A DNA stretch of 64,000 nucleotides from a virus (lineage: Duplodnaviria; Caudoviricetes). How positions within the stretch are numbered: position 1 is the first letter of the stretch; every line of letters starts with the position of its first letter. A model generated the notes under the pieces. It did no database searches and was not told the origin of the DNA. It worked only from the letters and a program-made list of their open reading frames with translations. The stretch lies in the IMG/VR virus record IMGVR_UViG_3300009183_000045. One strand, written 5' to 3'. The translations under genes were made by a program, and so were the position numbers. Positions 588 through 51,658 of the stretch are shown one piece after another.

Positions 588-1436
588 TTACTTTAAATCC
601 CTGCCTGCGTTAATAACAGAAACCGCGATGCTAGAATGAATACTCTCATAATGATTGACAATTACGAGGTAATCCTTGATACGACCATCAAGATCTTTAT
701 CCAATTCAACTGCAACTTTACGAACCATGTCTTCAACAAACACCGGATTTTCATACATTAATTCAGTTTGATAGGCTTCATCAACTCTCTTAAGAGCATT
801 TACAATAGGAGCAGAAGAACTCTTTTCAACTGCAAGAATCAATTCTTCCAGCCAATAAATATTATCCTGATTAGCTGTGCCAACATTAGCCAATTCTACA
901 GTCACATCTGCATAAGACTGCTGATTATGTGCACCATAATCAGAAATTTCCTTAGAACAAGGACACAGGGAAGCGTAAAGAACATTTCCGTGGAGATAAA
1001 ATTTCTTTTCCCCATTAATCAGGCGACCTTCAAGTGATCCTTGATAATCCATATGAGAAACCACCTTGGAAACTGGTGCTTCTTTCTTCAAGAAATAATC
1101 AAATTTGATTTTAATGTAAGCATTTTCACTCTTCAGGCGAAGCTTACATTCATCCAGCAGGATATTCATCACTTCATCAATGCGATGAGTTTGATTGGCC
1201 AATACTTCTTCTACCAAAATACGGTAGCGACTCATATTTGTGCCTTTAACCTCTGGAGTGAGGTCTGTATACATGCTGATAATTGCTTTGGTGGGATTAA
1301 TGGTTCCATCTCGGCGAAGAATCTGCATAGGGACTACAATATTGCGAGATCCAACCTTTGGAATATATTTCTTAGGAAATCCGTCGACGGTGTTTTGGAT
1401 GTCTGGAATGTCGTTATTTGTTTTGATACGTGGCAT
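588..1436 (-). CDS. folE2: GTP cyclohydrolase I type B (FolE2/MptA family), about 282 aa
   Basis: Motifs IPDIQ, KGTNMSR, SLCPCSKEIS..GAHNQ, NPVFVEDMVR, HYESIH. Start moved to MPRIK (ATG 1436) because the longer ORF overlaps gp32. Confidence 0.92.
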   Translation of the reverse strand: MPRIKTNNDIPDIQNTVDGFPKKYIPKVGSRNIVVPMQILRRDGTINPTKAIISMYTDLTPEVKGTNMSRYRILVEEVLANQTHRIDEVMNILLDECKLRLKSENAYIKIKFDYFLKKEAPVSKVVSHMDYQGSLEGRLINGEKKFYLHGNVLYASLCPCSKEISDYGAHNQQSYADVTVELANVGTANQDNIYWLEELILAVEKSSSAPIVNALKRVDEAYQTELMYENPVFVEDMVRKVAVELDKDLDGRIKDYLVIVNHYESIHSSIAVSVINAGRDLK

Positions 1437-1494
1437 AATGTTGTTTTGTTTGTTGTTATTATTATAGTGGGTTGAGATTTTTTTTCTCCAAGAA

Positions 1495-2376
1495 TTAAAG
1501 GTCTTTGAGAATGTCTTTAATGCGGCTATCGACAGGAATTTCATCTTCATCTTCTGTAGAACGAGCGGGTTTTTCTGTAACTGATTGTGTCTTACTGGGT
1601 GTATAAGAAGGTGTATAAGAAGGTTCATCTTCCTCTGGTACTTCTGGAGTCTTTGTAGCAACTACTGCTTCTGTTTGTCCAAGAAAATGAATATTCAAAG
1701 CTTTTGAAACTTCTTCATAGCTCTTGTGTTCAAAAATGGTGTCCAAAGACTTAACAGAATTGTAAATTACATCTGTATCTGGATCTCCCTCAAGAGCTGA
1801 CGGACCAGTAAATTTAGAGGCAACATATGTAGGATAACCCCCTTCGTTGGTTTCTACCTTAATACGAAGATTGCATCCCTTTTCTGATAGATCAAAAATC
1901 TTTGCTCCCAAATCTTCTGCGTCATCTCCTGAAATTGCTGACGTAATAATCTTGTCCAGCTGTTTGCCGAATCGAAGAATCTTTACCTGACCCTGATTTT
2001 CGGGATTGGTTGGATCCTTGATGACGTATACATTGGCTAACCAGTTTTCATTGCGCTTGATGGGCTTAATGCGTTCAATTTCATTCTTGTCCTGGGTGCG
2101 ATAAATCTTGGAACGACATTCATCAATGGCACAGCGCTCTCCGTAAGTGGAAGGACATAGGCAAGATACCAATTCATTGGTAATAACACTATTCCACAAG
2201 TGGTGGTAATAGTGGAACATGGTGCGCTCGGGATTGGCTAGATTTGGAATAAGACGAACTAGATAAGTCTTACCAATTTCCAATTTCATAAAATCTTTAA
2301 AACTTCCTCCCTCTCCTGAGGATTTTTTAGTAAGGGCTTCTTTGATGGATTCGAATAGGTTGGCTGTGTATTTCAT
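1495..2376 (-). CDS. T4 gp32-like single-stranded DNA-binding protein
   Basis: VRLIP, H..W, C..T.GE.C..C zinc site, WLANVYVIKDP.NPEN.GQVKILRFGKQL, acidic tail. Confidence 0.92.
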   Translation of the reverse strand: MKYTANLFESIKEALTKKSSGEGGSFKDFMKLEIGKTYLVRLIPNLANPERTMFHYYHHLWNSVITNELVSCLCPSTYGERCAIDECRSKIYRTQDKNEIERIKPIKRNENWLANVYVIKDPTNPENQGQVKILRFGKQLDKIITSAISGDDAEDLGAKIFDLSEKGCNLRIKVETNEGGYPTYVASKFTGPSALEGDPDTDVIYNSVKSLDTIFEHKSYEEVSKALNIHFLGQTEAVVATKTPEVPEEDEPSYTPSYTPSKTQSVTEKPARSTEDEDEIPVDSRIKDILKDL

Positions 2377-2379
2377 AGG

Positions 2380-4303: not shown

Positions 4304-5686
4304 TCACTCTTCATCCAAAGATTCAATTATTCTTATAGTGTCTGATACACTATTAATGTTGCTAGAAGAACCAGGCAAATTCTTTTTAGGAACTGTAAAG
4401 GATTTAGACACATCATCCGGATCCTTTAACGATAAAGTTGGATAGTCTATTTCTAATATGGTGTGACACTCTCGAGGGCCAAATCGATTCTTGGTGATGC
4501 CTAAATGAATAATTCCTAATTCAAAATCTTCTTCTTCTGTCCAGATAGGAAACTGACAATCAGCGGTGTGGGATAGACCCATGGATTCACTAGTGGTCTC
4601 AAGACCTGGATTAGATTCATTATAAGCTGATCTATTTGTCTGGGTTGCTGTGATGAGGGGGCAGCTAAAATAATAAGTTAGAGCCCTAATTTGTTCTGTG
4701 ATCTGCTTAATAGATTCATAGGAATTCATCCCCTTTTCTGGCGGTGCTAATAGATTAAGATAGTCCAAAACTATGATATCCGGCTTAATTCCCTTCCTCA
4801 CCAACCGATCAATGTAGGATTTAATTTGAAGAGGAGTGACTGATTTAGGAGGAAATTCTTTAATAATTAATTTAGACATCTTGTGTTGAATTTTATACTT
4901 TTCAACACTTTGTTTGAGAGGACCTATCTGCATGGACAGATCATTCATTGCTATTTTAGATAACTGAGAACTAATGCGCTTGGCGTATACCTGCTCAGAC
5001 ATTTCCAAAGAAATTAATAAAACAGTTTTATCTTGATCTAAAATATTTGTGGCTATATTTCCGAGAAAAATTGATTTACCCACATTAGTAACTCCATAAA
5101 ATACATACAAGGCCCTTCCGGCCGACATGAAGCCCCCACCAATTCTTTCATCCAACCATTTCCATCCTGAGGGAATTACTTTAAACACCTTCTGGAGGTC
5201 CTTACAGTGCTCATCTATGTCTTCTAGATAATCAAAGCCGTAATTTTCTACAAGGTTTATGTTACACGCTTCATCAAAGTCTTGTAATATTTTGGTGGTG
5301 TTTATTTCTCCGGACTGAACATCTATAGAAGTTTTCAATACTGTACTATAAACTGCCTTTTCTCTGAAAAACCTCTCAGAATTCTTCAACAATACATCCT
5401 TATCATAGGATTTATCTATAACCTCAAATCCCAAAGCTACCTGCTTCAAAGAATTGCGTTTTTCATTATCCACCATGTGGACCTTTAATTCAGTAATGTT
5501 GGGTATTTTGTGATAATTTGAGTAATATTCTGCCAAGGATTCAAAAACTGATCTAATGTTTTTGTCCTCAAAATAACTAGGTTTGGCATGTTCAATAATA
5601 CTTTCCAGGTAAACTGGATCCATCAAAGCGTTGTATATAATGAGCTTCTCAAATAGAGCAAGATCAATCGGCAAAGAAGACTTCAT
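4304..5686 (-). CDS. gp41 replicative DnaB-like helicase
   Basis: IPSGWKWLD, Walker A-like GVTNVGKS, ISLEMSE, IVLDYLNL, TATQTNR, SESMGL, KNRFG. Confidence 0.95.
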   Translation of the reverse strand: MKSSLPIDLALFEKLIIYNALMDPVYLESIIEHAKPSYFEDKNIRSVFESLAEYYSNYHKIPNITELKVHMVDNEKRNSLKQVALGFEVIDKSYDKDVLLKNSERFFREKAVYSTVLKTSIDVQSGEINTTKILQDFDEACNINLVENYGFDYLEDIDEHCKDLQKVFKVIPSGWKWLDERIGGGFMSAGRALYVFYGVTNVGKSIFLGNIATNILDQDKTVLLISLEMSEQVYAKRISSQLSKIAMNDLSMQIGPLKQSVEKYKIQHKMSKLIIKEFPPKSVTPLQIKSYIDRLVRKGIKPDIIVLDYLNLLAPPEKGMNSYESIKQITEQIRALTYYFSCPLITATQTNRSAYNESNPGLETTSESMGLSHTADCQFPIWTEEEDFELGIIHLGITKNRFGPRECHTILEIDYPTLSLKDPDDVSKSFTVPKKNLPGSSSNINSVSDTIRIIESLDEE

Positions 5687-5751: not shown

Positions 5752-6183
5752 TTATTGGAAGGTTGCGGAGTTATCTGCATGCTCCCAAACCTCAACTTTG
5801 AACACTCTACATCGAGTTCCATACTTTTGTTTAATGATATTATCTGCTGCGTTAAAACACCATTCTGCTGTCTTTTCAATTCCTACTCCATCCATAATTC
5901 GAAGATCACATCCTTTTAAAATATGCAATTCTTCAAAATATCTTAACAACGGATCATCAGCTGCTACACAAAGAGTGTGGTCAAATTGATCCTGTAAAAC
6001 CTTTTTAAGATCTTTGAGATCTCCAAAATCTACACACCAATTTTTATCATCTAATTCTTTGCATTCAAACCAAAATTTGGCTTTAAGTTGGTAGCCGTGA
6101 ACGTATTGACAATGGGAGTGTTGTGCTCTCCATTGACGAAAAGCACAGCTACCCAATTCAATAATTTTTGTAGATTCAAACAT
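5752..6183 (-). CDS. queD: 6-carboxy-5,6,7,8-tetrahydropterin synthase
   Basis: HSHCQYVHGY, VDFG.LK, FDHTL, E..A, VWEHADNSATF. Confidence 0.92.
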   Translation of the reverse strand: MFESTKIIELGSCAFRQWRAQHSHCQYVHGYQLKAKFWFECKELDDKNWCVDFGDLKDLKKVLQDQFDHTLCVAADDPLLRYFEELHILKGCDLRIMDGVGIEKTAEWCFNAADNIIKQKYGTRCRVFKVEVWEHADNSATFQ

Positions 6184-6188
6184 ATTGT

Positions 6189-7337
6189 TTACTCTTGCTC
6201 TTCTACATCATTATCTGGTTCTAAGACCGGAGAATCAACGGTTTCTTTGCGATATTTGAGTTGTTCTTGTAATTTACTTTCAATCTGTGGAAGAATCTTA
6301 TTCCATATTTCTTCATCAGCTCTCCAAGATTTATAATATCCTAATTTAGTCCCGTCAGCTAATGCAAAAGTGGCTCCGTTTTGAACAACTACACCATACC
6401 CAAGTGCCATTTCAAGAAGACCAGAATACTTGGCCAAACCCGACCTGAAATTGAGATATAATTCTGTTTCAAGAAAAGGAGGAACAATGCGATTCTTAAT
6501 TGTAAGAGCTCTTAAAGTCACACCGTTAACATCTTTTGCCATTGGTATAATTTCATCGGAAGCCTCTCTACTGCCATTGGAACCACCAGAAGCCTTTTCA
6601 TTTTTGACAGCCATCTGCACTAGCACAGAAGACATATACAAAGGACCGGAACCGCCAGACTGTTGCTTCACAACTCCTGGAAACATTTCCGAAGGATTTG
6701 TATAGATGTGATTACTGAATATAATAGGCACATCTGCTTTAGCTGCTTTATGTGTTAACACTCGAAGCATACTCTTGAGTCCCTTGGCTCTAGCTCCCAT
6801 ATCCATGGCTTCTTTGCCTGCAGACACATCATTCATCTCCTTAGTAGAAACTAAATTTCCTAGAGAGTCAATAGATATAATAAATTGACTCTTAAGTTTT
6901 TTTTCAATGACAGAATCAAGAAATTGACTAATCTGATTACGACACTGTTCAACTGTTTCAACCGGACAATATTTAACTCTAGAAGGATCTATACCCATGT
7001 TTGATGCAGATTGAGCATCTACTGCATTCTCTGTATCAAAGATAACAACATAGCGACCCGCTTTTTGAGCTTCTGCTAGAATTTTATTAATAACATAAGT
7101 CTTACCACAACTAGTAGGACCACTAAATCCAGTAATACGACCACTAGGAATTCCTTTATACAAAGAACCCCCTACAATGGCATTCAAAGCCATAGACCCT
7201 GTATCAATAAAACTACTAACATTAGACAATGTATTATTATCTAAAAAAGAAGCTTCTGGATTTAATCCATCTAAAACTTTAAAGGCAGATAACACATCTG
7301 CAGGATAATCTTTTTTTGCCATATTTTTATTCATCAA
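6189..7337 (-). CDS. uvsX: UvsX RecA-like recombinase
   Basis: IDTGSMALN, GRITGFSGPTSCGKT, FDTENA, IDSLGNL, QSGGSG. Confidence 0.93.
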   Translation of the reverse strand: MMNKNMAKKDYPADVLSAFKVLDGLNPEASFLDNNTLSNVSSFIDTGSMALNAIVGGSLYKGIPSGRITGFSGPTSCGKTYVINKILAEAQKAGRYVVIFDTENAVDAQSASNMGIDPSRVKYCPVETVEQCRNQISQFLDSVIEKKLKSQFIISIDSLGNLVSTKEMNDVSAGKEAMDMGARAKGLKSMLRVLTHKAAKADVPIIFSNHIYTNPSEMFPGVVKQQSGGSGPLYMSSVLVQMAVKNEKASGGSNGSREASDEIIPMAKDVNGVTLRALTIKNRIVPPFLETELYLNFRSGLAKYSGLLEMALGYGVVVQNGATFALADGTKLGYYKSWRADEEIWNKILPQIESKLQEQLKYRKETVDSPVLEPDNDVEEQE

Positions 7338-7731: not shown

Positions 7732-8538
7732 TTATATTACTAATATTCCATTTTTCAATGCAAATTCTTCTCTTTTTGGTTCTGTTGTTTCTGGAGATAA
7801 TATATCTTCTAGAGATCCTTCTGGACTAGGATGGGATAGTAAGGTGTTTTTGCGTGGTGTTTCTTTATTTTCTTTTTTAGTGGTAACAACCTCTAGAGCT
7901 TCTGCAATGGCCGGAAATAATTGGTTAAAACTTTCCTTGATAGAATTAGCTATTGTCCTGTGTTCAAGTTGAGTATCTACTTTGCACCTCAAATCAAAAT
8001 AATGGATCCAGGAACGAATGTTTCCGGACATATAAAGAGTTGTTTGTGTGCAAAGAGGTAAAACTTTACGAGCACTTTCTCTTGCTCCTCCTTTGGATAT
8101 TATATATTCATACAGATCAATGCCATCTGTTACATGATCTATTACTCTTTTAATATCTTCCTTGCTTAGTGGTAAAATATCTGTACTAGATTGACGATTT
8201 TTTTCTGCCTGAGCTCTAATATCGAAGGATTCAATTCCGGTTACCATACTGTATCGCTGGCTAAATTCTTGAAAAGCAAAAGACTTGTGTCTAATAATTT
8301 GAGCTGATATGTCCCTGCTAGTTTGAATTTCAACCGTCATTGAAGCTTGCTCAAAGATGGACCAATGGCCGTGTTCTATACAATATTTAATTAATTTTGA
8401 AGCAGATTCTAAGTTTAATTGATTAGATGGATTTGAAACTCTGGCACAATATACAATAAATTCTTCTGCGGTTAAAAATCTTGTATTATCTTCAGATCTT
8501 ATAAAGGGTTGAGTAACTGCTACTACTTTGGTGTACAT
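7732..8538 (-). CDS. thyX: Flavin-dependent thymidylate synthase
   Basis: ARVSNP, HWSIFE, RHKSFAFQEFSQRY, ARE.AR.VLP, TQLEHR. Confidence 0.95.
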   Translation of the reverse strand: MYTKVVAVTQPFIRSEDNTRFLTAEEFIVYCARVSNPSNQLNLESASKLIKYCIEHGHWSIFEQASMTVEIQTSRDISAQIIRHKSFAFQEFSQRYSMVTGIESFDIRAQAEKNRQSSTDILPLSKEDIKRVIDHVTDGIDLYEYIISKGGARESARKVLPLCTQTTLYMSGNIRSWIHYFDLRCKVDTQLEHRTIANSIKESFNQLFPAIAEALEVVTTKKENKETPRKNTLLSHPSPEGSLEDILSPETTEPKREEFALKNGILVI

Positions 8539-9332
8539 ATACCTTTAAATTTTAAAATGTTATGCTTAATAAGTTCTAAATTTGAAGAAGAAATTTCTGT
8601 ATCAAATAACTCTACCATTTTTTGAGGAGATTTGTCTAAAAGAGTTTCAATGTCATCATATGATTTACCAGAAATACCTGCCATAACGGGGTGGGATGTA
8701 TCTATACTATCAATAAAATTATATCTCATTGCTACATAATGACTAAATTCTGTAGGGACACCACATCCTAATAAATGATGTGGTTTATTTTTATTAATAA
8801 TACCCATTCCCACTAAGTGATTTATTAATTTAATGCGACCTACATTAAATCTATAAGCATTTGAATTGACATAATGTTCTTGTGTAGATTCTAGAAAATA
8901 ATCATAACCAAAACTAATTGCTATCTTATCAGCCTTTTCATTCATGAACCGATAACACTTTACAAGTTCTTGTAAAGTTTTGCCTTGCAAGACACCAATC
9001 TTTTTACCTGATAATTGAGACAAATCAAAATTATTTGTAAAAGATTCAAATGAACTAATATTGTGATCACAATCTTGCCATACGTCAGGCACTATATATT
9101 CATCTGGTTGAATTTCTAAAAGCCATTTGTAATATTTTTTTGAATCAAATGCTACACCTAATTCAAAAAGACTGCAATCCATAATAATTTGACGACCACT
9201 AATTTTAGCTTTCTTAAAAAATTCTAAATATGCAGGGTATTGTTCCAGTAGATGAACTAAACAATAATCATAATCTGTCATTGTTTGTATCTCGTCCATA
9301 ATTGACATTGGAGCTTCGTGTGCTATTCTCAT
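8523..9332 (-). CDS. TGT/DpdA-like TIM-barrel base-exchange transglycosylase (candidate DNA 7-deazaguanine insertase)
   Basis: Motifs in TGT order: IIMDCS (DSGG-like), PDV, GVLQG, HLLGCG, SIDTS; co-occurs with folE2/queD/queE/queC. Confidence 0.68.
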   Translation of the reverse strand: MRIAHEAPMSIMDEIQTMTDYDYCLVHLLEQYPAYLEFFKKAKISGRQIIMDCSLFELGVAFDSKKYYKWLLEIQPDEYIVPDVWQDCDHNISSFESFTNNFDLSQLSGKKIGVLQGKTLQELVKCYRFMNEKADKIAISFGYDYFLESTQEHYVNSNAYRFNVGRIKLINHLVGMGIINKNKPHHLLGCGVPTEFSHYVAMRYNFIDSIDTSHPVMAGISGKSYDDIETLLDKSPQKMVELFDTEISSSNLELIKHNILKFKGICTPK

Positions 9333-9353: not shown

Positions 9354-11693
9354 CTATCCGAATAAATCAAACAAATCTGTCTGAACTTCTCTTCCTGTTT
9401 GTGGAAGTCTCCATCCAATACAATCATAAAACCTCTCTAGTGGAGGAGATACTATCTTGTCAAACATGGTTTGATAATCGGGTTTGACGTGTTCATAAAG
9501 TTCTGTAGGATATCTTTCCATGAAAGCCATACTTTTGTAATTGAAAGCGTTCTTGCTTGTGTAGAAATATTTCAATTTCATGGCACTTCCTATAGATTCA
9601 TACTGATGATCCAATTTATAATGCTTGAGGAGTTTATTAAAGTGAATAGCACTCTTGGCTTGGAGAGTTGTTCCCTTTCCTATTTGTCCAAAAGCGTCTA
9701 TTTTGGCTTCATATTTTTCATAATCAGAAATTTTGGTTCTAATTGAAATGTTTTCCACCGGCATACTACAAAAGTCTTCATGAGCTTTCTTAAATATGGT
9801 GTCTGCTTTCTTTTTATCTTGAGCCATCATTGCAGATTCAATCACACTTTTGATTAATTCTTTAACTTCCTTCGAGATTGTAGAGCGAGCTATCTCAACT
9901 CCTACATATTTGAAAGGTTTCTTCGGAATCTTGCCTTCTTTGTCTATAATGTGTAGTATATAGCGCTTCTTAGCATCAAATAAAGCTACATCACAAATTG
10001 TTTCTTGTTTAAAAACAAACCGTGGATCACTTACTTTCAGTTCTTTTCGAGCCCATATCTTGATTTGTTCATTGAGATATACGTCAATTTCCCCGATTAC
10101 CTTCCTGGCTCCTTCTGTAATCTTGCCGTTTTCCTGCAGATTGATGTTTAGGGTATTGAGGATGGGTTCGATGGAAAAGTAAGCAGAATCAGTATCTCCG
10201 TAGCGATACAGGTCGCCTTTCTTCCCGGTAAACCCTTGCTGCCGGGCATATTCTAAAACAATTTCTGGAGCTTGCTTGGCCACTGTTTGGCCTGTTAGAG
10301 TAATGCTAGCGGAATGATCAATGTCAAAAAGCGGAGAATATTTCTGTGCAAATACACCATAAATGGAGTTTAGAATCAACTTAAACACATTTTGTTGTGT
10401 GTCAAGGTTAAGAATCTCGGCTTCAAGCCGTAATTTTTCCTCTTTATCTGTTAATGTCTCTGCAATATCTGTTAATCTTGAGGCTTCTCTCTGAGTTTGC
10501 ACTCGTTCATCATACAATCTATCGATTAAAGCAGGCACAACACCACGAAATTTCTGTGTATACAATACATTATACTTAGAAATTGACAATTCTTCTTTCT
10601 GTACCAGGCGATTAAACTTTTCTTCAGAGAGAATTACTGTTTTTTCATTGGAAAGACGAATTGTATACTCATTATTTTCTATTTCGACTATTTTTCCTAT
10701 CTTTGTCTCCGGAGAAATGTTCAAAGTGATGATTGTATTTGGATATAGACTGTTTGCATCATAGCTTACCACAGATTTACACAGACCTCTCTCGGGTTCG
10801 TGTACATATCCACCTACATATTCATCTCTGATGCCGTCATTCTTGAATGTAGGGATGCGATATCCCTGTAAAAGAGCTTGATGAGCAACTGCTCCGGTGA
10901 TCATAGAGACCTTTCCGAGAGATTGTTCGAAGGGAATGAAACCTTTATAGGACAAAGCTCTAATCAATTTGAGAAATTTAAGCTTCTCTTCCATCTTTGC
11001 TAGCAGTCTTACATCTTGTATGTTGTAATCTACAAATAAATCCCAATCAGATTCTGAGAGAGCTGCTAGATTGGTGCCACCAACATCTGTTTTGCCTTCA
11101 TTCAATTCATATTCTGAAATATAATTCAAAGAATAAGACTCTCTGTCGCCGCGGGAGAAGGTTTTATACACCTCCATGTAGTCAATATTACTCACTCCAC
11201 GAATATACCACCTATCAATCATCTTACCCATCTTGTTCATTGCTACATTCTCTCGATAGTAGATAGCCCTTACCGGAGATAGACGAGAAGTCTCCTCTTG
11301 GCCCAAGAGTTTATTAATGCGATTCATTACATAAGGAACGTCAAATCCCTCAGAGTTCCAACCAACCATCATATCTGGAGGATCTTTCTCCCAGAAACTC
11401 AAAAAAGCATTTAATAATTCTGTTTCTTTTTTACAATATGTGTAAACAACATTATCTTCTTTAGGTTTATAGGGTTTCAATCCCCAAGAATAAAATTTTT
11501 GACTGATGGAATCAAAAATTGTAATTAAATTGATTGGGTCATTGGCTATTTTAGGCTCCGGAAATTCTCCTTGTTGACTATAACAAGAATTAAAGTATGA
11601 AGTCCAACACTGTTTATCTTCATCCCATACTTCATAATCTTCAAACATGTTGCTATTACGAAATTCTCCTAATTTTATTGTGGATTCAGCCAT
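9354..11693 (-). CDS. gp43 family B DNA polymerase, C-terminal part (rest of exonuclease plus polymerase domain), 779 aa
   Basis: ExoII GWNSEGFDVPY, ExoIII YNIQD, motif A SYDANSLYP, motif B KLILNSIYG, motif C YGDTDS, KKRY. Confidence 0.95.
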   Translation of the reverse strand: MAESTIKLGEFRNSNMFEDYEVWDEDKQCWTSYFNSCYSQQGEFPEPKIANDPINLITIFDSISQKFYSWGLKPYKPKEDNVVYTYCKKETELLNAFLSFWEKDPPDMMVGWNSEGFDVPYVMNRINKLLGQEETSRLSPVRAIYYRENVAMNKMGKMIDRWYIRGVSNIDYMEVYKTFSRGDRESYSLNYISEYELNEGKTDVGGTNLAALSESDWDLFVDYNIQDVRLLAKMEEKLKFLKLIRALSYKGFIPFEQSLGKVSMITGAVAHQALLQGYRIPTFKNDGIRDEYVGGYVHEPERGLCKSVVSYDANSLYPNTIITLNISPETKIGKIVEIENNEYTIRLSNEKTVILSEEKFNRLVQKEELSISKYNVLYTQKFRGVVPALIDRLYDERVQTQREASRLTDIAETLTDKEEKLRLEAEILNLDTQQNVFKLILNSIYGVFAQKYSPLFDIDHSASITLTGQTVAKQAPEIVLEYARQQGFTGKKGDLYRYGDTDSAYFSIEPILNTLNINLQENGKITEGARKVIGEIDVYLNEQIKIWARKELKVSDPRFVFKQETICDVALFDAKKRYILHIIDKEGKIPKKPFKYVGVEIARSTISKEVKELIKSVIESAMMAQDKKKADTIFKKAHEDFCSMPVENISIRTKISDYEKYEAKIDAFGQIGKGTTLQAKSAIHFNKLLKHYKLDHQYESIGSAMKLKYFYTSKNAFNYKSMAFMERYPTELYEHVKPDYQTMFDKIVSPPLERFYDCIGWRLPQTGREVQTDLFDLFG

Positions 11694-12487
11694 ATATTGC
11701 GCAGATTTGTTAAATTTTTATGTTTACAAGGAGATATATTCTCTATCAAATAAGATATAAATTCCTCTTCAGACATATTAGCGTATCTCTTACCCGAAAT
11801 CTCCCTTTGATTGGTTTTTTTACCCTTTTTGGCTTCTGATATCTTTCGTCCTCTTTCAATGTGGTTAACATTTTGGTTGTGCAAAGATTTTTTTAATCTA
11901 TTTTTTTTATCCTCAGCTGATAATTGAGATATATTTAATTTAGCCTTGCTGGATAGTTGCTGCCTCACCTCTAATGTATATCCTGCAGAGACTACCTTGG
12001 ACCTATCCCAGTGGCCGTAAATATATTTATTTTTTTTAATATTCACCCTATTGCCACATCCACATAAACAAATTGGTAAATTTTCTAATTTAATCTGATT
12101 TAAAATTAAATTTCTTTTTTGGTGGGATTCTGAGACCTTAAGGCGTGTCTCTGGATTTTTCATTGGATGATTGATTGAATATTCTTTCCTGGCAATTTCA
12201 AATTGTCTAGAAGTAGTTTTTCTATTTTTAGAATTATGAAAACACATTCGATTAAAAGCAGATGATAATTTAGTCTTTATCTGAATATTGTCTTTTTTAT
12301 ACATTTTACACAAAAGCCAATGAGCTATAAAATGTTCCCTGGCGGTGAGTAAACTAATATTGGAAGTTTCATTAGAACCCCCTAAACATTTAGGAATTAT
12401 ATGATGTCTTTCATAATATTGAAGAGTTAATTTAATTCTAGTTGTTCCTCTAGTACAGATTTTGAGATATATAGACTTATAATTCAC
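11675..12487 (-). mobile_element. HNH homing endonuclease gene (GTG start) inserted between the two gp43 pieces
   Basis: ERHHIIPKCLGGSN...N...LTAREHFIAH HNH motif, CLCGC and basic C-terminal DNA-binding region. Confidence 0.92.
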
Positions 12488-12490
12488 ATA

Positions 12491-12500
12491 TATAATTATA
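12491..12500 (-). promoter_or_regulatory. Palindromic TATAATTATA, candidate late promoter for the HNH gene
   Basis: Variant of T4 late TATAAATA; the TAATTA core ends 5 nt before the GTG. Confidence 0.45.
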
Positions 12501-12516
12501 AGTCTCTAAGTCCCGG

Positions 12517-12915
12517 TTAAGATTTTTTTCTTATTTTAATTTTATGATCGTCCTTGTATCTCATACCGTACGTTTCAATGTCCCAAAAGTAAATCTTTAA
12601 AGGATTTGCCAGTGCTTCTGGCTTATGGATATCATCTTTGAATGAAGACAACAAAAATTCTTGTTCACAACTGAGATTGTGAAATATTCTTTTAATGGCC
12701 GTCTCGTTTACAAATTTATTACGTTCAAATTGATTTTTGAACTTAACTTTTTTTAGAGGTGTATTAAAAATAGAGACCGCATCTGTGCCGTATGCAGATT
12801 CTACGAACAGATGCGGTTCATAACTGGATTCTAATTTGATTCGTTTACCATTTTCATTCCACGTCCACAGATGGACACACTGTTTTGCGGAATCATAAAA
12901 GACATTTCGATACAT
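12517..12915 (-). CDS. gp43 DNA polymerase, N-terminal part (N-domain plus ExoI motif), 132 aa
   Basis: MYRNV...W..NG.R....YEP.LF gp43-type N-terminus and ExoI YFWDIETY, then ends with KIRKKS-stop. Confidence 0.9.
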   Translation of the reverse strand: MYRNVFYDSAKQCVHLWTWNENGKRIKLESSYEPHLFVESAYGTDAVSIFNTPLKKVKFKNQFERNKFVNETAIKRIFHNLSCEQEFLLSSFKDDIHKPEALANPLKIYFWDIETYGMRYKDDHKIKIRKKS

Positions 12916-13605: not shown

Positions 13606-14925
13606 TTATTTGGATAACTGATCTTGATTTAGTTTAATTAAATTAGGACTTTTTAAATTTCGCTCTTTAGATCCCCAATTAGTAAAATACATTGCCTCAA
13701 ATTCATCCAAATGATCTTCTAACCACAATTTGTCCGTAAAATCGTGAATATTTTTAGAAAGTTTCATATATCTGTCATAATCTGATGTAATGTGTTCTAA
13801 TTGGCTTATCAGATCAACACCTTTATCAAATTTTAACTCTGCATCTTTATATGTACAGAGATTTTGAAAGGTTCCTGGCATGCCAAATGCACCGGATTCA
13901 ACAATTTTAATGTTACTTTTAGATTTATTGAAAATATTATCTTGCAAGGGTGCAAAACTTACGTTACATGCTGCATCGTGTATGGCTTTGGGTAAATCAA
14001 ACAAAGAAGACCACGGTAAAAATTCCATTTCACCATTATCAATAAAGGGTTTAACCGAAAGTGGAAATGTTCCTTTCCAAACAAATTTAAATTTCTTGCG
14101 AGCCTTAATAATTTCATCAACAACGTGAGCAAAATCATCCTTTAGTCCAGTTTTATTGGCAACATCTATATGAGTGCCGGAACCAGCATACAATACTCGT
14201 GGTCTCCTCTTATGTTGATCATAAAGTTTTGCTATTCTATCTGGATAATAGTAATGTCCCAACCATTGTTTTGGAGCATAATTAGGAATGACTGTTACTT
14301 TCTTCGAACCAGTTTTTTCAATATAATAATCTTTCATATATTGACAGGTGACTGTCATCTCGTCCATCAATTCCATAATTTCTAAAATAGTGTTTTCCAC
14401 TTCTGAGGATGCAAAAGCTTCCTTGCATCTATTATAATCTGGAATATCATTTCGGAAGACCACATCATCAATTTCATACACCAATTTATAACCAATTTGA
14501 TCTTTATGTTTGTGAAGTTCTTGTATAAAACTTTTTTGTACCGGAGTTGCCTGTCTTTGCATTCTTATAGTTTTAATGTTTTGATAAAAACGCAAATCTA
14601 AAACCATACTAGTTAATCCAGATACACAAGCCTTATGATAAGCATTGAGAGAAATTTCGGGCCATATCATACGCCAGAAACCACAACCACCGTAATCTGC
14701 ATAATAGTTTAATGCTCGTGGTAAGTTGGCTTCTTGCATTACTACAGGTGCCTGCACTGGAATCCGAATAGGAACAGATGAGATGTATCGGTTCTTGGGT
14801 AAAAAAGATTGATAATGTCCAGATGGTAAATTTGGAATACCATGTTCCACAGAAGAATATTCGTAAACTATTTTATCATCTAAATTATGAGATGAATTGT
14901 CTGAAGATTTTAATTTTAAGGCCAT
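13606..14925 (-). CDS. GT-B fold glycosyltransferase, 439 aa
   Basis: DYGGCGFWR, YEIDD, APL..N.FNKSKSNIK.VE (GT4-like nucleotide-sugar motif). Confidence 0.75.
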   Translation of the reverse strand: MALKLKSSDNSSHNLDDKIVYEYSSVEHGIPNLPSGHYQSFLPKNRYISSVPIRIPVQAPVVMQEANLPRALNYYADYGGCGFWRMIWPEISLNAYHKACVSGLTSMVLDLRFYQNIKTIRMQRQATPVQKSFIQELHKHKDQIGYKLVYEIDDVVFRNDIPDYNRCKEAFASSEVENTILEIMELMDEMTVTCQYMKDYYIEKTGSKKVTVIPNYAPKQWLGHYYYPDRIAKLYDQHKRRPRVLYAGSGTHIDVANKTGLKDDFAHVVDEIIKARKKFKFVWKGTFPLSVKPFIDNGEMEFLPWSSLFDLPKAIHDAACNVSFAPLQDNIFNKSKSNIKIVESGAFGMPGTFQNLCTYKDAELKFDKGVDLISQLEHITSDYDRYMKLSKNIHDFTDKLWLEDHLDEFEAMYFTNWGSKERNLKSPNLIKLNQDQLSK

Positions 14926-28818: not shown

Positions 28819-32724
<3,906 letters not shown>

Positions 32725-35683: not shown

Positions 35684-35684
35684 T

Positions 35685-38897: not shown

Positions 38898-38953
38898 ATA
38901 GTTATATTTATTAATTTAGTTCATTCTCTTGCACTTTAGAATCATCATTGGAT

Positions 38954-39931: not shown

Positions 39932-39938
39932 ATTGGAT

Positions 39939-40940: not shown

Positions 40941-40945
40941 AATGT

Positions 40946-42522: not shown

Positions 42523-42527
42523 AAAAA

Positions 42528-42875: not shown

Positions 42876-42876
42876 A

Positions 42877-44075: not shown

Positions 44076-44088
44076 TCTTCCGACTGTA

Positions 44089-45751: not shown

Positions 45752-46384
45752 ATGAAATTAGCAGTAGTAGGCACTCAGTGCATAGGCAAAAGCACTTACA
45801 TTAAAGATTTTTTAAATAAGTGGAAAATGTATACAACTCCTGAAAAAACATACAGAGATGTAGTCAAAGAAAAAAACATACCGATTAACAGATTAGGAGA
45901 TGAAGAATCACAACAAATTATATTAGACTTTCTGATTGATCAGGCCATGTCTTGTTCTAAAACTGAAAATGTAATATTCGATCGTTGTATATTAGACAAT
46001 CTAGCATACTCTTCCTGGCTTCATCTTAATGATAAAGTATCAGAAAAATTTTTAGACAAGTCCCGACTATTGGTAAGAGAAACTTTAAAGATGTTTGACA
46101 TCATTTTCTTTTTGCCTATTACAAAGATGTCACCAGTTGCTTTAGTTGAAGACGGTGTGAGAGACACAGATCCCGTATATAGGGAAGAAATAGACAACAT
46201 ATTTAAAGCTTTCTTAAAGTCCTATCATCAAGAAGACGGGAGAGTGTTTCCTAAAGGTGACAGTCCCCCGATTATAGAAATTTACGGAAGTCCAGAACAG
46301 CGCTTGTCTTTGACCGCTTTATACCTTAATGAAGAAGGTAAAGCCTTTGGTGAAGAACAAAGTCTTATATCTGAACTATATTAA
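45752..46384 (+). CDS. P-loop nucleotide kinase (NadR/Ttd14 AAA_28-like, possible dNMP kinase)
   Basis: AVVGTQCIGKST, IFDRCILD, YDI-like FDIIFFLP, R.EID. Confidence 0.75.
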   Translation: MKLAVVGTQCIGKSTYIKDFLNKWKMYTTPEKTYRDVVKEKNIPINRLGDEESQQIILDFLIDQAMSCSKTENVIFDRCILDNLAYSSWLHLNDKVSEKFLDKSRLLVRETLKMFDIIFFLPITKMSPVALVEDGVRDTDPVYREEIDNIFKAFLKSYHQEDGRVFPKGDSPPIIEIYGSPEQRLSLTALYLNEEGKAFGEEQSLISELY

Positions 46385-47404: not shown

Positions 47405-48364
47405 ATGAGGGCTCTACCGGGAACTTATGTTTTAAGCAAATTCTATACCTTAGCAGGAGAACCTTCTTTTCGTAAATTTGACGGCAATTATAATGCCTCT
47501 TGTCCAATATGTCGTGAAGGTAAGAGCTGGTTGAAAAAGAAAAGACTTTTCTTCTATCCTTCAACCAGCTCTTTTTATTGCTTCAATTGCAATAAATCAT
47601 GGAATGCCTGGAGATGGATCACTGAATCCTCTGGTCTTACTAGAGAAGAGATTGAAATAGAAGCATTCAATGGCAACACCTCAACAGATGTCACTGATCA
47701 TATAGGATTAGTTAAACAAATTCGCAAAGAAAAACCAAATCTTCCTCATGATTCAGTTAATTTGAGTGATTTACAACAACAAAAATTTTATAGATCTTCT
47801 AATCACTTTAATAATGCTCTTGAATACTTAAAAAGTAGAAAATTAGATGTAGCAATCAACCGAAGTGTTAATTTTTATATAAGTTTAACAGACCACTTTC
47901 ATAAAAATAGGTTATGTATTCCCTATTTTGATCGCAATCGTAAAATAGTATTCTATCAAACAAGATCTTTAGACGGTTCAGAACCTCGTTATTTAAATAA
48001 AATAGGATATGACAAAACTGTTTTTGGTATAGACAGAGTTGATAGTGAGTTGGATAAAATTTTTCTATTTGAAGGACCTATTGATGCCATGTTTGTAAAG
48101 AATGGAGTATCTTTAGCCGGCCTTTCCCTCACCAATACCCAAGAGAAACAATTATCAGAATTTCCTTTTCATGACAAAATATGGGTATTAGACAATCCAA
48201 GAATAGACAAGGCCTCCAAAGAGAAGCTTTTTAGCTTGTTAAGCACAAAACAAAAGGTATTCCGGTGGCCTCTCGACAAGCCCTATAAAGATTTCAATGA
48301 ATGGGCGGTTAAAGAAGGAATCAACGAAATACCTATTGATTTTATTTTAAATTCTTTATACTAA
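47405..48364 (+). CDS. gp61 DNA primase
   Basis: CPIC zinc finger, YCFNC, IPY, YQTR, RYLN, TOPRIM FEGPIDAMF, LDN, YKDFNE. Confidence 0.95.
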   Translation: MRALPGTYVLSKFYTLAGEPSFRKFDGNYNASCPICREGKSWLKKKRLFFYPSTSSFYCFNCNKSWNAWRWITESSGLTREEIEIEAFNGNTSTDVTDHIGLVKQIRKEKPNLPHDSVNLSDLQQQKFYRSSNHFNNALEYLKSRKLDVAINRSVNFYISLTDHFHKNRLCIPYFDRNRKIVFYQTRSLDGSEPRYLNKIGYDKTVFGIDRVDSELDKIFLFEGPIDAMFVKNGVSLAGLSLTNTQEKQLSEFPFHDKIWVLDNPRIDKASKEKLFSLLSTKQKVFRWPLDKPYKDFNEWAVKEGINEIPIDFILNSLY

Positions 48365-48958: not shown

Positions 48959-49702
48959 ATGGACAGTACAAATACATTGAAGTCTTGTGTAGTTTTATTT
49001 AGCGGAGGCATGGACAGTACCGTTGTACTGCATCATGCATTAGCCAATTATGATAAAGTGTATGCTTTAGCTATTGATTATGGGCAACGTAATATTAGAG
49101 AATTAACAAATGCAGAAGATTATCTTACCAGTTACATTTTAAAATCTTCATATGCAGAAAAAATCAAATATTCACGCTTGCCCCTTCCAGTTAAGCTATT
49201 GAATTTTAATTCAGCATTAACAAATGATGAGATAGAGGTGCCTAAAATGAAAGAGGTTATTGGAGATCCTCAAAATAATGCTTATGTACCCAATCGAAAT
49301 ATGATATTTTTATCATTGGCCGTTGGAATGGCAGAGAGTGTGGGTGCAACTCACGTACTATACGGAGCAGCAAAAGCAGATGATACATCAGGGTTCTGGG
49401 ATTGTACAGCTGACTTTAGAAATTATCTAAATACCATTTTATCCTTAAATCGTAGGAATTTAATAGAGATTAAAACACCTCTAATAGATAAAACAAAAAA
49501 AGAAATTATAGAATACGGTATTGAATTAGGAGTTGAGTTTGCACTGACGAGGACATGTTACACAGAACACGAAAAATCCTGTGGAGAGTGTCCTAGTTGT
49601 TCAGCAAGAATTGCAGGGTTTATTCACTCCAAAAAAATTGATCCTCTAAAATATTCTAGAGATATACCGTGGCAAAATTGGAATTGTGAACCATTATATT
49701 AA
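48959..49702 (+). CDS. queC: 7-cyano-7-deazaguanine (preQ0) synthase
   Basis: FSGGMDST, DYGQR, YVPNRNMIFLS, DC, TPL, T.TCY, CGECPSC..R. Confidence 0.95.
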   Translation: MDSTNTLKSCVVLFSGGMDSTVVLHHALANYDKVYALAIDYGQRNIRELTNAEDYLTSYILKSSYAEKIKYSRLPLPVKLLNFNSALTNDEIEVPKMKEVIGDPQNNAYVPNRNMIFLSLAVGMAESVGATHVLYGAAKADDTSGFWDCTADFRNYLNTILSLNRRNLIEIKTPLIDKTKKEIIEYGIELGVEFALTRTCYTEHEKSCGECPSCSARIAGFIHSKKIDPLKYSRDIPWQNWNCEPLY

Positions 49703-49705: not shown

Positions 49706-50347
49706 ATGTGTGCAATTAGTGGATCTAACAATTTAGAAAAGGCGTTTGCTCTTTATAAACTTAATTTACAAAGAGGTGCCCAGTCCTCGGGTATGCTAGC
49801 AGTTGGCTCCAGAGGATCCAATGTAAGCAGAATAGCAAATACATATGATGAGGATTATATATCTCATTTTAAAAAACAATTTGCTCAAAGCCCTTTCAAC
49901 TATCATTATTTTTTATTCCATTCCAGGGCTCCTACAAATAGTACAGTAACAACCTGGAGCCAAGAAACTACACACCCGTTTGCGTCTTCCAGTGGCCCAG
50001 ATTATCTCGTAGCACATAATGGAATTATAACAAATTTTTCTTCTTTTGAAGAAAGTAAACATCTAACAATAGATTCTCAAATAATTCCAGAACATCTATC
50101 GAAAACTCAAAACATTGTTGAAACATTTTCAAAATACGAAGGATTGTTTACCTGTTGGATAGTAAACAGGGATAGAATACAATTAGTTAAAGCGGGCAGT
50201 TCTCTATGGATGGATGAAAATTCCTTTTCTTCTTCCAAGTTTGAAGGTGCAGAATGTGTGGAAGATGATGGTGTTATATTTGATTATAAAGACGGAAAAT
50301 TTGAAAAGAGTGGAACCTTTCCGTACACCAACACTTATTTTATATGA
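49706..50347 (+). CDS. Class II (Ntn) glutamine amidotransferase
   Basis: N-terminal Cys (MCAISG), RG..SSG, HSRAPT, HPF, AHNGII. Confidence 0.88.
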   Translation: MCAISGSNNLEKAFALYKLNLQRGAQSSGMLAVGSRGSNVSRIANTYDEDYISHFKKQFAQSPFNYHYFLFHSRAPTNSTVTTWSQETTHPFASSSGPDYLVAHNGIITNFSSFEESKHLTIDSQIIPEHLSKTQNIVETFSKYEGLFTCWIVNRDRIQLVKAGSSLWMDENSFSSSKFEGAECVEDDGVIFDYKDGKFEKSGTFPYTNTYFI

Positions 50348-51042
50348 AAAAAGTAACTGCAATTATTGCAACAGAAGCCAAGTCAATGCAAGAATTTGAA
50401 AAACGTCCAATTTTTAAATCTCTACAGAGACATTATGACTCTAAAGATCTTTTTACTTTGAATAAATTTGATTTTGTTGTCGTAAAAAACAACAAAGAAG
50501 GTTTGTCTAAGGTTTATAACAAATTTTTAGAAGACCCAAAGTATTCAAAGGATATACTTTTGTTTGTACATGATGATGTTGAACTAGAAGATGTGTTTTT
50601 AATTGAAAAATTGAGAGAATCTCCTTATGAGGTAACTGGTCTGGCAGGAACAAAAAAGGCAGACTTGAGTAAACCTTCTGGTTGGCATTTAATGAGTGGC
50701 AAAGAAGATTGGGTTGGGGAAGTGGCTCATGCAGAAATTAAAGAGGGCAAAAAAAATGTTTGGACAACTAGTTTTGGATCCACAGATTCCAGAGCCCTTT
50801 TGATAGACGGACTTTTTATTGCAGTAGACGTCAAAGCTTTAAGGGATAAATCTGTTAAATTTAATGAAAAGTTTGAATTTCATCATTATGATTTAGCCTT
50901 CTGTCTTGAGTGTAATAAAGCAAAAGTAAAAATTGGTGTGTTGCCTATAAGAGCAATCCACCACGGTCTAGGTGATAGTATGCTTTCTGAAGATTGGAAG
51001 ATCAGTGCTGAAATATTCAAGCAAACCTACGGTACAAATTAA
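50344..51042 (+). CDS. GT-A glycosyltransferase (Glyco_tranf_2_5-like)
   Basis: LSKVYN, FVHDDV, GLAG, IDGLFIAV, FHHYDL..C; ATGA overlap with the GAT gene. Confidence 0.82.
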   Translation: MKKVTAIIATEAKSMQEFEKRPIFKSLQRHYDSKDLFTLNKFDFVVVKNNKEGLSKVYNKFLEDPKYSKDILLFVHDDVELEDVFLIEKLRESPYEVTGLAGTKKADLSKPSGWHLMSGKEDWVGEVAHAEIKEGKKNVWTTSFGSTDSRALLIDGLFIAVDVKALRDKSVKFNEKFEFHHYDLAFCLECNKAKVKIGVLPIRAIHHGLGDSMLSEDWKISAEIFKQTYGTN

Positions 51043-51064
51043 AAACAAACTATATAATAAAAAT

Positions 51065-51658
51065 ATGAGCAGATCTAGAATTTATAATGATGAAGACTAT
51101 GACGGATCTTTGATCCACGAACGATTTGGTTACAGAATCTTTCGTAAAGAATACAATCCACTTGGTGTCCTTTATATTACCAGAGGCAATATGGACGTTA
51201 AAGATAATCTGATTGATTTAGAGGATAAACTATCTGATGATTTTATTTATTCTGATGATGCATTGAGCATTTGCTGGGAGATTCCTAACATGAATGCTAT
51301 CGGAGCTGTATTCTTTCAGCGTCTATTTGTGCAAGAAATTGCTAACCTTTTCAGAACAGACAAGTTTGGTCTTTATGATGTTGAAGTAAATGGAGATGAT
51401 TTAATGCTTCGCAAAAAGGGCATGGGGGAGAATAATAGAGAAGAATGGGGCAAAGCTAGTGTAAGCATTACCAAAGTAACAGACACAGTTGCCTTGGGTC
51501 ATTTTGGAATCAATATTAGTGCGGGTGAAAGAGCACCTAGTTTTGCATTTTCTCTTTTCTTAACAGATGAGTTGGTTGAAAAGTTGGCTAGCAAAATTGA
51601 TGACATTTTTTATGAAATTGTTCGGGATTGTTTTACAGCAACCACCAAAGTAATTTAA
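51065..51658 (+). CDS. DUF366-like protein (BPL/LplA-like fold)
   Basis: YDGS.IH..F.YR, RG.MDV...LIDLED, FI.SDD, GDDL, K.SVSI, HFGINI; start taken at MSRSR (ATG 51065), preceded by TATAAT-N6. Confidence 0.75.
   Translation: MSRSRIYNDEDYDGSLIHERFGYRIFRKEYNPLGVLYITRGNMDVKDNLIDLEDKLSDDFIYSDDALSICWEIPNMNAIGAVFFQRLFVQEIANLFRTDKFGLYDVEVNGDDLMLRKKGMGENNREEWGKASVSITKVTDTVALGHFGINISAGERAPSFAFSLFLTDELVEKLASKIDDIFYEIVRDCFTATTKVI

What the first reader, a model, noticed from the sequence alone, without database searches (positions are those of the whole stretch)
588..51658. Complete deazaguanine pathway dispersed one gene at a time through the replication core
folE2 follows gp32, queD sits between uvsX and gp41, the TGT-like gene lies between gp43 and thyX, queE follows gp46, and queC/GAT follow primase. 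Described phage dpd clusters are usually contiguous. Interleaving with core replication genes suggests an old, vertically inherited DNA modification rather than a recently acquired queuosine AMG cassette. No queF is in the window, which favours preQ0/G+ over preQ1.
Basis: partly seen in the sequence, partly recalled or inferred. Interest (0 to 1): 0.75.

Follow-up and report, generated by a model that had tools for sequence, protein, structure and literature searches.

The report
Deazaguanine DNA-modification genes woven into replication core
An uncultured T4-like phage carries every gene needed to make a 7-deazaguanine base and swap it into its DNA, placed singly between its replication genes, and relatives keep this layout, so the modification is an old fixed trait of the lineage and a new branch of an already known kind of system.

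Summary
Observation confirmed. The window encodes FolE2 (588-1436), QueD (5752-6183), a TGT-fold DpdA3 transglycosylase (8523-9332), QueE (14957-15709), QueC (48959-49702) and a stand-alone class-II glutamine amidotransferase (49706-50347). Each is packed against a T4-type replication gene: gp32, uvsX/gp41, gp43/thyX, gp46, primase.

- Every metagenomic relative that covers these sites (gp43 72-91% identical) has the same genes at the same junctions. One is a complete 227-kb genome.
- The neighbouring glycosyltransferase islands and homing endonuclease turn over, but these genes do not.
- Synonymous sites are as saturated as in the core genes. FolE2 is 98% identical in protein, which indicates strong purifying selection.
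- That complete relative has no QueF, ArcS or canonical TGT. This favours a preQ0-level or G+ base, probably replacing most or all G, as in characterised DpdA3 phages.

Caveats.
- Dispersal itself is not new: CP220 and the Flavobacterium phage immuto are also scattered.
- More distant relatives place queD, queE and dpdA3 differently.
- The DpdA3 tree conflicts with gp43 at depth.

New details are FolE2 in place of FolE, an unfused QueC and GAT, and a dNK/TMPK-like kinase linked to dpdA3 across lineages. That reading is not upheld.

The parts
588..1436 (-). folE2, GTP cyclohydrolase IB (GTP to dihydroneopterin triphosphate)
   Evidence: Pfam PF02649, E 1.6e-63. NCBIfam FolE2 scores 205.5, just under its cut-off of 215. 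Start refined to ATG 1436. Protein is 91-98% identical across the clade.
1495..2376 (-). gp32 single-strand DNA-binding protein (core neighbour)
   Evidence: Pfam gp32; phrog_224.
4304..5686 (-). gp41-type replicative helicase (core neighbour)
   Evidence: Pfam DnaB_C.
5752..6183 (-). queD-like 6-carboxytetrahydropterin synthase, variant motif CxxxHGY
   Evidence: Pfam PTPS, E 4e-18. It is below the TIGR03367 cut-off. The motif is shared with the QueD of phage immuto. It is the only PTPS gene in the complete relative.
6189..7337 (-). uvsX recombinase (core neighbour)
   Evidence: Pfam RecA.
7732..8538 (-). thyX thymidylate synthase
   Evidence: Pfam Thy1, E 2.5e-45.
8523..9332 (-). dpdA3, TGT-fold DNA guanine transglycosylase
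   Evidence: Homology to immuto DpdA and CP220 gp056; phrog_19058. Model pLDDT 93. Top Foldseek hits are TGT, E about 1e-9. D52, D83 and D211 are invariant, and D211 aligns to TGT D280.
9354..12915 (-). gp43 DNA polymerase in two pieces (12517-12915 and 9354-11693), with a homing endonuclease gene at 11675-12487
   Evidence: Pfam DNA_pol_B; PHROGs. Most relatives have gp43 in one frame.
13606..14925 (-). Conserved glycosyltransferase between queE and gp43 (relation to the pathway unknown)
   Evidence: phrog_7162. Present at this site in all relatives, including the outer clade.
14957..15709 (-). queE, radical-SAM 7-carboxy-7-deazaguanine synthase
   Evidence: phrog_2076 QueE-like, E 4.7e-46. 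NCBIfam QueE models match at E 1e-13 to 1e-6, all below their cut-offs.
15719..17539 (-). gp46 (Rad50-like) recombination nuclease subunit (core neighbour)
   Evidence: Pfam SMC_N, AAA_23 and the zinc hook.
45752..46384 (+). P-loop (deoxy)nucleoside/nucleotide kinase, linked to dpdA3 in other lineages
   Evidence: Pfam AAA_28; phrog_2107. Its fold matches deoxynucleoside kinases and thymidylate kinase. It lies within 2.2 kb downstream of dpdA3 in about 10 of 12 distinct outside lineages.
47405..48364 (+). gp61-type primase (core neighbour)
   Evidence: phrog_47 DNA primase, E 3.8e-40.
48959..49702 (+). queC, 7-cyano-7-deazaguanine (preQ0) synthase
   Evidence: Pfam QueC, E 6.6e-55. TIGR00364 scores 166.9, above its cut-off of 150.3. 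The SGGMDS PP-loop and the Cx8CxxCxxC motif are visible.
49706..50347 (+). Stand-alone class-II (Ntn) glutamine amidotransferase, coupled to queC
   Evidence: Matches the N-terminal part of GlmS. Cys2, R23, HNG and D123 are invariant. It is adjacent to queC in close and distant relatives.
50344..51042 (+). GT-A glycosyltransferase, conserved after the GAT (role unknown)
   Evidence: Pfam Glyco_tranf_2_5. Conserved in L034, L035 and L036. Absent near dpdA3 or queC in distant lineages.
51065..51658 (+). DUF366/COG2029 protein (role unknown)
   Evidence: Pfam DUF366, E 2.6e-17. Likely start is M32. 91% identical in G001.

Best explanation
This is a phage-encoded 7-deazaguanine DNA-modification system of the DpdA3 type that has become part of the conserved replication module of a lineage of uncultured T4-like phages.

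The inferred pathway runs as follows.
- FolE2, QueD, QueE and QueC convert host GTP through CPH4 and CDG into preQ0.
- The amidotransferase coupled to queC supplies glutamine-derived nitrogen. It serves either QueC's own amidation steps or the conversion of preQ0 to the amidine G+.
- DpdA3, a small TGT-fold enzyme, exchanges guanine in phage DNA for that base.

By analogy with the three characterised DpdA3 phages, most or all G is probably replaced, which would shield the DNA from restriction and other DNA-targeting defences.

Each gene is packed, on the same strand, against a replication or recombination gene. They are therefore presumably expressed with the replisome.

Shown here: gene identities, the DpdA3 fold, the conserved layout, and purifying selection. 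Inferred: the chemistry, the final base, the extent of replacement, the timing and the protective role.
For: - Gene identities rest on family searches.
- DpdA3 is 44.5% identical to immuto DpdA and 39% identical to CP220 gp056. Both phages have fully G-replaced DNA (PMC10516641).
- The DpdA3 model has pLDDT 93 and TGT structures are its top hits. The catalytic Asp residues are conserved.
- Gaps to the flanking core genes run from a 16-nt overlap to 65 nt.
- The same junctions occur in L024-L032, L034-L036 and the complete genome G001. The variable islands have no counterpart there.
- Between the window and G001, FolE2 is 98% identical in protein with 46% identity at four-fold sites. Core genes show 35-49% at four-fold sites.
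- The gp32-folE2 junction is kept where FolE2 is 53-84% identical and core proteins are about 31-47% identical.
- G001 has no QueF, ArcS or Pfam-TGT and has a single PTPS gene.
- The DpdA3 sequences of the window clade form one group with 100% support.
Against: - There are no chemical data: nothing here shows that the DNA is modified, or with what.
- QueD carries CxxxHGY instead of the CxxxHGH signature. QueD and QueE score below the NCBIfam equivalog cut-offs.
- The GAT is only weakly similar to the Gat domain of phage 9g Gat-QueC (E 0.007). Its closest cultured-phage homologues sit in an amidoligase cluster that holds no recognisable 7-deazaguanine gene.
- DpdA3 and the GAT evolve much faster (50-60% identity) than their neighbours.
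- In the outer clade, queE and queD are not at these sites. In L057, dpdA3 lies between uvsX and gp41.
- An AU test rejects grouping the window clade's DpdA3 with that of its gp43 sister clade (p 0.003). This could reflect in-place replacement or a long-branch artefact.
- The rest of this genome could not be searched.
Confidence: 0.75

Rival explanations
1. The route is pre-replicative, through the nucleotide pool. The dNK/TMPK-like kinase that travels with dpdA3 phosphorylates a 7-deazaguanine deoxynucleoside or deoxynucleotide. The phage polymerase then incorporates it. DpdA3 would act on nucleosides or nucleotides, or would only repair residual G.
For: - The kinase lies within 2.2 kb downstream of dpdA3, on the same strand, in about 10 of 12 distinct lineages outside the window clade. 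These include CP220 and immuto.
- In G004 it is embedded between dpdA3 and QueF-QueC-GAT.
- Its fold matches deoxynucleoside kinases, thymidylate kinase and the kinase domain of NadR.
- Among GenBank phages, tblastn with the window's kinase finds it only in Campylobacter phages, 14 of which were also dpdA3 hits, and in one group of Streptomyces phages.
- CP220 has an HD-domain protein directly upstream of dpdA3.
- Free ADG nucleoside was reported in CP220-infected cells (PMC10516641).
Against: - All known TGT-family enzymes act on polynucleotides.
- Cui et al. argue for post-replicative insertion.
- In the window clade the kinase is about 37 kb from dpdA3.
- The kinase may simply be the phage's thymidylate kinase in a nucleotide-metabolism module. 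In the window, thyX occupies the slot next to dpdA3.
- No DpdA3-kinase fusion occurs among 150 family representatives.
Confidence: 0.15
2. The genes are independently acquired, recently inserted auxiliary genes (a scattered AMG set taken from hosts or other phages). They would not be an old part of the genome.
For: - The window is rich in obviously mobile or variable genes between core genes: a homing endonuclease, a segE-like gene and glycosyltransferase islands.
- DpdA3 is as close to a non-T4 Flavobacterium phage (44.5%) as to outer T4-like clades.
- The deep DpdA3 tree conflicts with gp43.
Against: - Junctions are identical in every relative that covers them, while the variable islands differ.
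- Synonymous sites are saturated.
- No close bacterial FolE2 was found.
- More than 120 metagenomic FolE2 clusters grade from 98% down to 49% identity. The four contexts inspected are phage-like.
Confidence: 0.05
3. It is a queuosine-precursor AMG set that boosts or alters host tRNA modification, not phage DNA.
For: PreQ0 genes without a recognised DpdA were once read this way (PMC6884629). The DpdA3 here has no Pfam TGT hit.
Against: - DpdA3 is present, and cultured phages carrying this family have fully modified DNA.
- There is no QueF, so the bacterial tRNA substrate preQ1 is not made.
- The genes sit inside replication operons.
Confidence: 0.04

Closest known systems
[quoted passage not shown] 2023, PMC10516641
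   Same: - The same transglycosylase subfamily (39-44.5% identity).
- De novo synthesis genes are co-encoded.
- The genes are scattered rather than one tight operon in CP220 and immuto.
- The linked P-loop kinase is present.
   Different: - FolE2 is used instead of FolE. tblastn with the window's FolE2 finds only 3 of 50,697 GenBank phage records, none of them an annotated phage genome.
- QueC is paired with a separate amidotransferase.
- There is no QueF, DpdL or DpdN.
- Each gene is fixed at a junction between T4-type replication genes.
- The host and the chemistry are unknown.
Enterobacteria phage 9g dG+ cluster (DpdA1, FolE, QueD, Gat-QueC, QueE); Hutinet et al. 2019, PMC6884629
   Same: It is a preQ0 pathway plus a glutamine amidotransferase associated with QueC. 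dpdA lies next to the polymerase and clamp genes.
   Different: - In 9g the genes form one contiguous block.
- In 9g the Gat domain is fused N-terminally to QueC. Here the GAT is a separate gene downstream of queC and is barely similar (E 0.007).
- 9g uses DpdA1, not DpdA3, and only about 25% of its G is modified.
T-even hydroxymethylcytosine system (gp42, gp1, gp56, glucosyltransferases)
   Same: A DNA hypermodification pathway whose genes are scattered through, and inherited with, the T4-type replication and nucleotide-metabolism core. This comparison rests on established knowledge and was not tested here.
   Different: T4 modifies C before replication through the dNTP pool. Here the signature enzyme is a base-exchanging TGT homologue acting on G.

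Membership tests
DpdA3 subfamily of DNA guanine transglycosylases | Sequence homology to CP220 gp056 and to immuto/phiST DpdA3 | tested here: met
   tblastn gives 44.5% identity over 100% of the query to immuto DpdA (E 2e-64) and 39.3% to CP220 (E 4e-45). phrog_19058 matches at E 1e-49.
DpdA3 subfamily of DNA guanine transglycosylases | TGT-like fold with the catalytic aspartates | tested here: met
   The model has pLDDT 93. All of the top 50 Foldseek hits are tRNA-guanine transglycosylases, with E from 1e-9 to 2e-8 and TM 0.61-0.69. D211 aligns with the TGT nucleophile D280. D52, D83 and D211 are invariant in 18 homologues. Neither Pfam TGT nor a profile search against PDB sequences detects the protein.
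DpdA3 subfamily of DNA guanine transglycosylases | Inserts a 7-deazaguanine into DNA, with complete replacement of G | not testable with these tools
   This needs nucleoside LC-MS/MS of virion DNA.
preQ0 biosynthesis pathway (FolE/FolE2, QueD, QueE, QueC) | All four enzymatic steps are encoded | tested here: met
   Pfam GCHY-1, PTPS and QueC match, and the PHROG QueE-like family matches. QueC passes the TIGR00364 cut-off.
preQ0 biosynthesis pathway (FolE/FolE2, QueD, QueE, QueC) | QueD signature CxxxHGH with three zinc-binding histidines | tested here: inconclusive
   The motif here is CxxxHGY, and FRQW replaces the first histidine region. The catalytic Cys is kept. The same variant occurs in immuto, whose DNA is fully modified. 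TIGR03367 scores 40 against a cut-off of 89.
Gat-QueC (G+ synthase of phage 9g and Crenarchaeota) | Class-II amidotransferase domain fused N-terminally to a QueC domain | tested here: not met
   There are two separate genes in the order queC then GAT, 3 nt apart. The same split occurs in L014, L016 and L034-L036.
Gat-QueC (G+ synthase of phage 9g and Crenarchaeota) | Active glutaminase site, and specific kinship of the Gat domain | tested here: inconclusive
   Cys2, R23, H104-N105-G106 and D123 are invariant. BLASTP against 9g Gat-QueC gives only E 0.007 over 51 residues.
Bacterial queuosine tRNA pathway (auxiliary metabolic gene reading) | QueF (preQ0 to preQ1) and a tRNA-type TGT | tested here: not met
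   No QueF was found in the ORFs of the window scanned against Pfam. The complete relative G001 has neither QueF nor Pfam TGT.
T4-like phages (replication core) | gp43, gp41, gp61, gp32, uvsX, uvsY, uvsW, gp46/47, gp55, gp20 and the prohead protease | tested here: met
   Pfam and PHROG hits. gp43 is only about 30% identical to cultured T4-like phages.

The most novel reading that the evidence does not exclude
DpdA3-type systems, including this one, work with a dedicated dNK/TMPK-like kinase. Complete replacement of G would then be achieved wholly or partly through the nucleotide pool: a 7-deazaguanine deoxynucleoside or deoxynucleotide is phosphorylated and polymerised by gp43. This would differ from the currently proposed purely post-replicative base exchange.
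Probability: 0.15. Interest if true: 0.8.

Novelty: new variant of a known kind. Interest (0 to 1): 0.45.

Why it matters
- It extends the DpdA3 type of modification, which replaces all G in the three phages studied, to a large group of uncultured T4-like phages. The family has 474 clusters at E below 1e-30 in the representatives library. Earlier notes of this scan call this phage a freshwater phage. That was not checked here.
- It shows a purine hypermodification pathway behaving like a core genome trait, much as hmC does in T-even phages. One enzyme, FolE2, is more conserved than the polymerase.
- If the DNA is fully modified, these phages should resist many restriction systems. They may also be under-represented or mis-called in some sequencing chemistries.
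- The conserved kinase linkage reopens the question of whether complete replacement is made before or after replication. It points to a concrete enzyme to assay.

Tried and rejected
- A profile of 18 DpdA3 homologues against PDB sequences found no significant TGT match. The fold search was needed.
- Complex prediction on QueC plus GAT gave no verdict. It is not used either way.
- A test for DpdA3-kinase fusions found none among 150 representatives. The longer forms include two DpdA3-formyltransferase fusions, one protein with a NUMOD3 tail and one with a DUF3310 tail. The rest have no Pfam match.
- GC and GC3 of the que genes fall within the range of the core genes. Only dpdA3 is lower. This was not informative.
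- Palindrome avoidance in the window and in G001 is weak for both G-containing and AT-only sites (median observed/expected 0.91-0.96 and 0.93-1.08). This is compatible with protected DNA but is not evidence for it.
- A full-text search for DUF366 returned only DUF3669 papers.
- The window's own genome is not held and has no near match in GenBank phages. The complete relative G001 was therefore used as a proxy.
- I considered that the very high FolE2 identity meant recent exchange. I rejected this because four-fold sites are saturated.
- I considered the GAT a true split Gat-QueC. This is left open.


Full report
**What is in the window**

The 64-kb window is a stretch of a divergent T4-like phage. 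It holds a two-piece gp43, gp41, a gp61-type primase, gp32, uvsX, uvsY, uvsW, gp46/47, gp55, gp20 and the prohead protease. Its gp43 is only about 30% identical to any cultured phage. There is no near DNA match in GenBank phages, and no whole genome is held.

Six deazaguanine genes sit among the core genes:
- folE2 at 588-1436. The start was corrected from the spurious TTG at 1661.
- queD at 5752-6183.
- A 269-aa TGT-like gene at 8523-9332.
- queE at 14957-15709.
- queC at 48959-49702.
- A class-II glutamine amidotransferase (GAT) at 49706-50347.

Each is co-oriented with a core gene and lies between a 16-nt overlap and 65 nt from it. Two details differ: a conserved 191-aa ORF on the opposite strand lies between the primase and queC, and the finding's end coordinate belongs to a DUF366 gene.

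**The TGT-like gene is a DpdA3**

- It has no Pfam hit.
- It is 44.5% identical to the annotated DNA guanine transglycosylase of Flavobacterium phage immuto_2-6A and 39% identical to CP220 gp056.
- Cui et al. 2023 named this family DpdA3 and linked it to complete replacement of G in CP220, phiST and immuto (PMC10516641).
- An AlphaFold model built on 18 homologues has pLDDT 93. Its 50 best PDB matches are all tRNA-guanine transglycosylases, with E from 1e-9 to 2e-8.
- D211 aligns with the TGT nucleophile D280. D52, D83 and D211 are invariant.
- The family is large: 474 clusters at 50% identity reach E below 1e-30.

**Is the interleaving inherited?**

Searching IMG/VR with gp43 and with QueC gave contigs whose gp43 is 72-91% identical, or whose QueC is 79-85% identical. 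Every one that covers a junction has the same gene there:
- gp46-queE-GT-gp43-dpdA3-thyX-x-uvsX-queD-gp41-DHH-..-gp32-folE2 (L024-L032).
- primase-(reverse ORF)-queC-GAT-GT-DUF366 (L034-L036).

I laid out one relative completely: G001, 227,352 bp, CheckV 100%. All the genes sit at the same places. The homing endonuclease, the FkbM and second methyltransferases and the two glycosyltransferase islands have no counterpart there. The que genes therefore behave like core genes, not like the hyperplastic filler.

Between the window and G001, core proteins are 61-80% identical. The pathway proteins compare as follows:

| Protein | Identity, window vs G001 |
|---|---|
| FolE2 | 98% |
| QueC | 79% |
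| QueD | 74% |
| QueE | 67% |
| DpdA3 | 57% |
| GAT | 51% |

Four-fold degenerate sites are equally saturated in all of these genes: 32-46% identity, against 35-49% in core genes. The near-identity of FolE2 therefore reflects strong purifying selection over the same time span, not recent transfer.

Further out:
- The gp32-folE2 junction persists in contigs whose core proteins are only about 31-47% identical (L056, L057, L058).
- Among 185,579 species genomes, the only close FolE2 relative lies on an 8-kb contig of a 'Melainabacteria' MAG. That contig reads uvsX-gp41-DHH-..-gp32-folE2, so it is a misbinned phage contig.

**Limits of the vertical picture**

- In the next clade out (gp43 about 50% identical; L002, L003, L006, L018), dpdA3 still follows gp43. 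However, queE is not after gp46 and queD is not between uvsX and gp41. QueC lies about 28 kb away.
- In L057, dpdA3 and the kinase lie between uvsX and gp41.
- The complete genome G004 has a compact cluster that also contains QueF.
- In the DpdA3 tree the window clade is monophyletic (100% support). An AU test rejects joining it to its gp43 sister clade (p 0.003). This test has caveats: the clade sits on a long stem branch, and I named the group after seeing the tree.
- DpdA3 is shared with unrelated phages. Immuto, for example, uses a family A polymerase.
- Dispersal is not unprecedented. In CP220, dpdA3 and queD are 9 kb apart among tail genes. In immuto the genes spread over 18 kb. In G005, QueC is 76 kb from dpdA3. 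The contiguous arrangement is that of phage 9g.

**Which base?**

- QueC passes the equivalog cut-off and has the PP-loop and the zinc-binding cysteines.
- No ORF of the window scanned against Pfam is a QueF.
- The complete relative G001 has no QueF, no ArcS domain, no Pfam TGT and only one PTPS gene, hence no DpdL.
- The GAT keeps the Ntn nucleophile Cys2 and the R23, HNG and D123 glutaminase residues. It is adjacent to queC in close relatives and in the distant contigs G004 and L016.
- It is not fused to QueC, lies downstream of it, and resembles the 9g Gat domain only marginally.
- Its pairing with QueC in G004, directly after a QueF-family gene, fits an ammonia-donor role for QueC at least as well as G+ synthesis.

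My estimate for the final base is G+ about 0.4, preQ0 about 0.35, and ADG or something else about 0.25.

**Other details**

- FolE2 (type IB) replaces the FolE found in the cultured phage pathways inspected here (9g and immuto). tblastn with the window's FolE2 hits only 3 of 50,697 GenBank phage records, and none of those is an annotated phage genome.
- QueD carries CxxxHGY instead of CxxxHGH. It shares this variant with immuto and other DpdA3 contigs.
- A P-loop kinase (45752-46384) lies within 2.2 kb downstream of dpdA3 in about 10 of 12 distinct outside lineages, including CP220 and immuto. Its fold matches deoxynucleoside and thymidylate kinases. Among GenBank phages, tblastn with it hits only Campylobacter phages and one group of Streptomyces phages. 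Cui et al. do not mention it. This keeps a nucleotide-pool route open as a minority reading.

**Verdict**

The inference of vertical inheritance is supported for this lineage. The system is a new variant of the known DpdA3 kind, not a new kind. queC is present, so that reading is not upheld.

Noticed in passing
window 9354-12915: gp43 is encoded as a 132-aa N-terminal piece and a 779-aa piece, with an HNH/homing endonuclease gene (11675-12487) between them. Most relatives have gp43 in one frame without the endonuclease. L024 also appears split, without it.
   Followed up: partly
window 13606-14925, 19607-24082, 38954-42522, 50344-51042; 28819-32724: There are at least nine glycosyltransferase-like genes. 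There is also a 1301-aa collagen-repeat protein in a 47% GC stretch, followed by two DUF1501 genes (34412-37052). The glycosyltransferase islands at 18209-20152 and 37055-44706 have no counterpart in the complete relative G001.
   Followed up: partly
window 45752-46384; L001, L003, L004, L006, L012-L017, L019-L023, L057: A dNK/TMPK-fold P-loop kinase sits just downstream of dpdA3 in most lineages outside the window clade. The DpdA3 paper does not discuss it.
   Followed up: partly
P0193, P0229 (representatives library): Two 447-aa proteins fuse DpdA3 to a Formyl_trans_N domain. This is a natural DpdA3-DpdN-like fusion, and it supports the proposed formyl-preQ1 pairing.
   Followed up: no
window 5752-6183; L004-L016, L022: The QueD of DpdA3-bearing phages forms a variant with CxxxHGY, and with FRQW where the first zinc histidine is expected. 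Phage 9g and CP220 keep CxxxH(G/S)H.
   Followed up: partly
L058 (CALBDR010000186.1): An 8-kb contig binned into a 'Candidatus Melainabacteria' MAG reads uvsX-gp41-DHH-..-gp32-folE2. It is a phage contig, either misbinned or a hint about the host.
   Followed up: partly
window 51065-51658: The DUF366/COG2029 protein is 91% identical in G001, which makes it the second most conserved protein of those compared. Its Atlas cluster has 2,368 members, 75% of them viral. Its function is unknown.
   Followed up: partly
window 27843-28268: A segE-like GIY-YIG endonuclease gene lies next to uvsY (27199-27597). It is a second mobile nuclease in the replication region.
   Followed up: no
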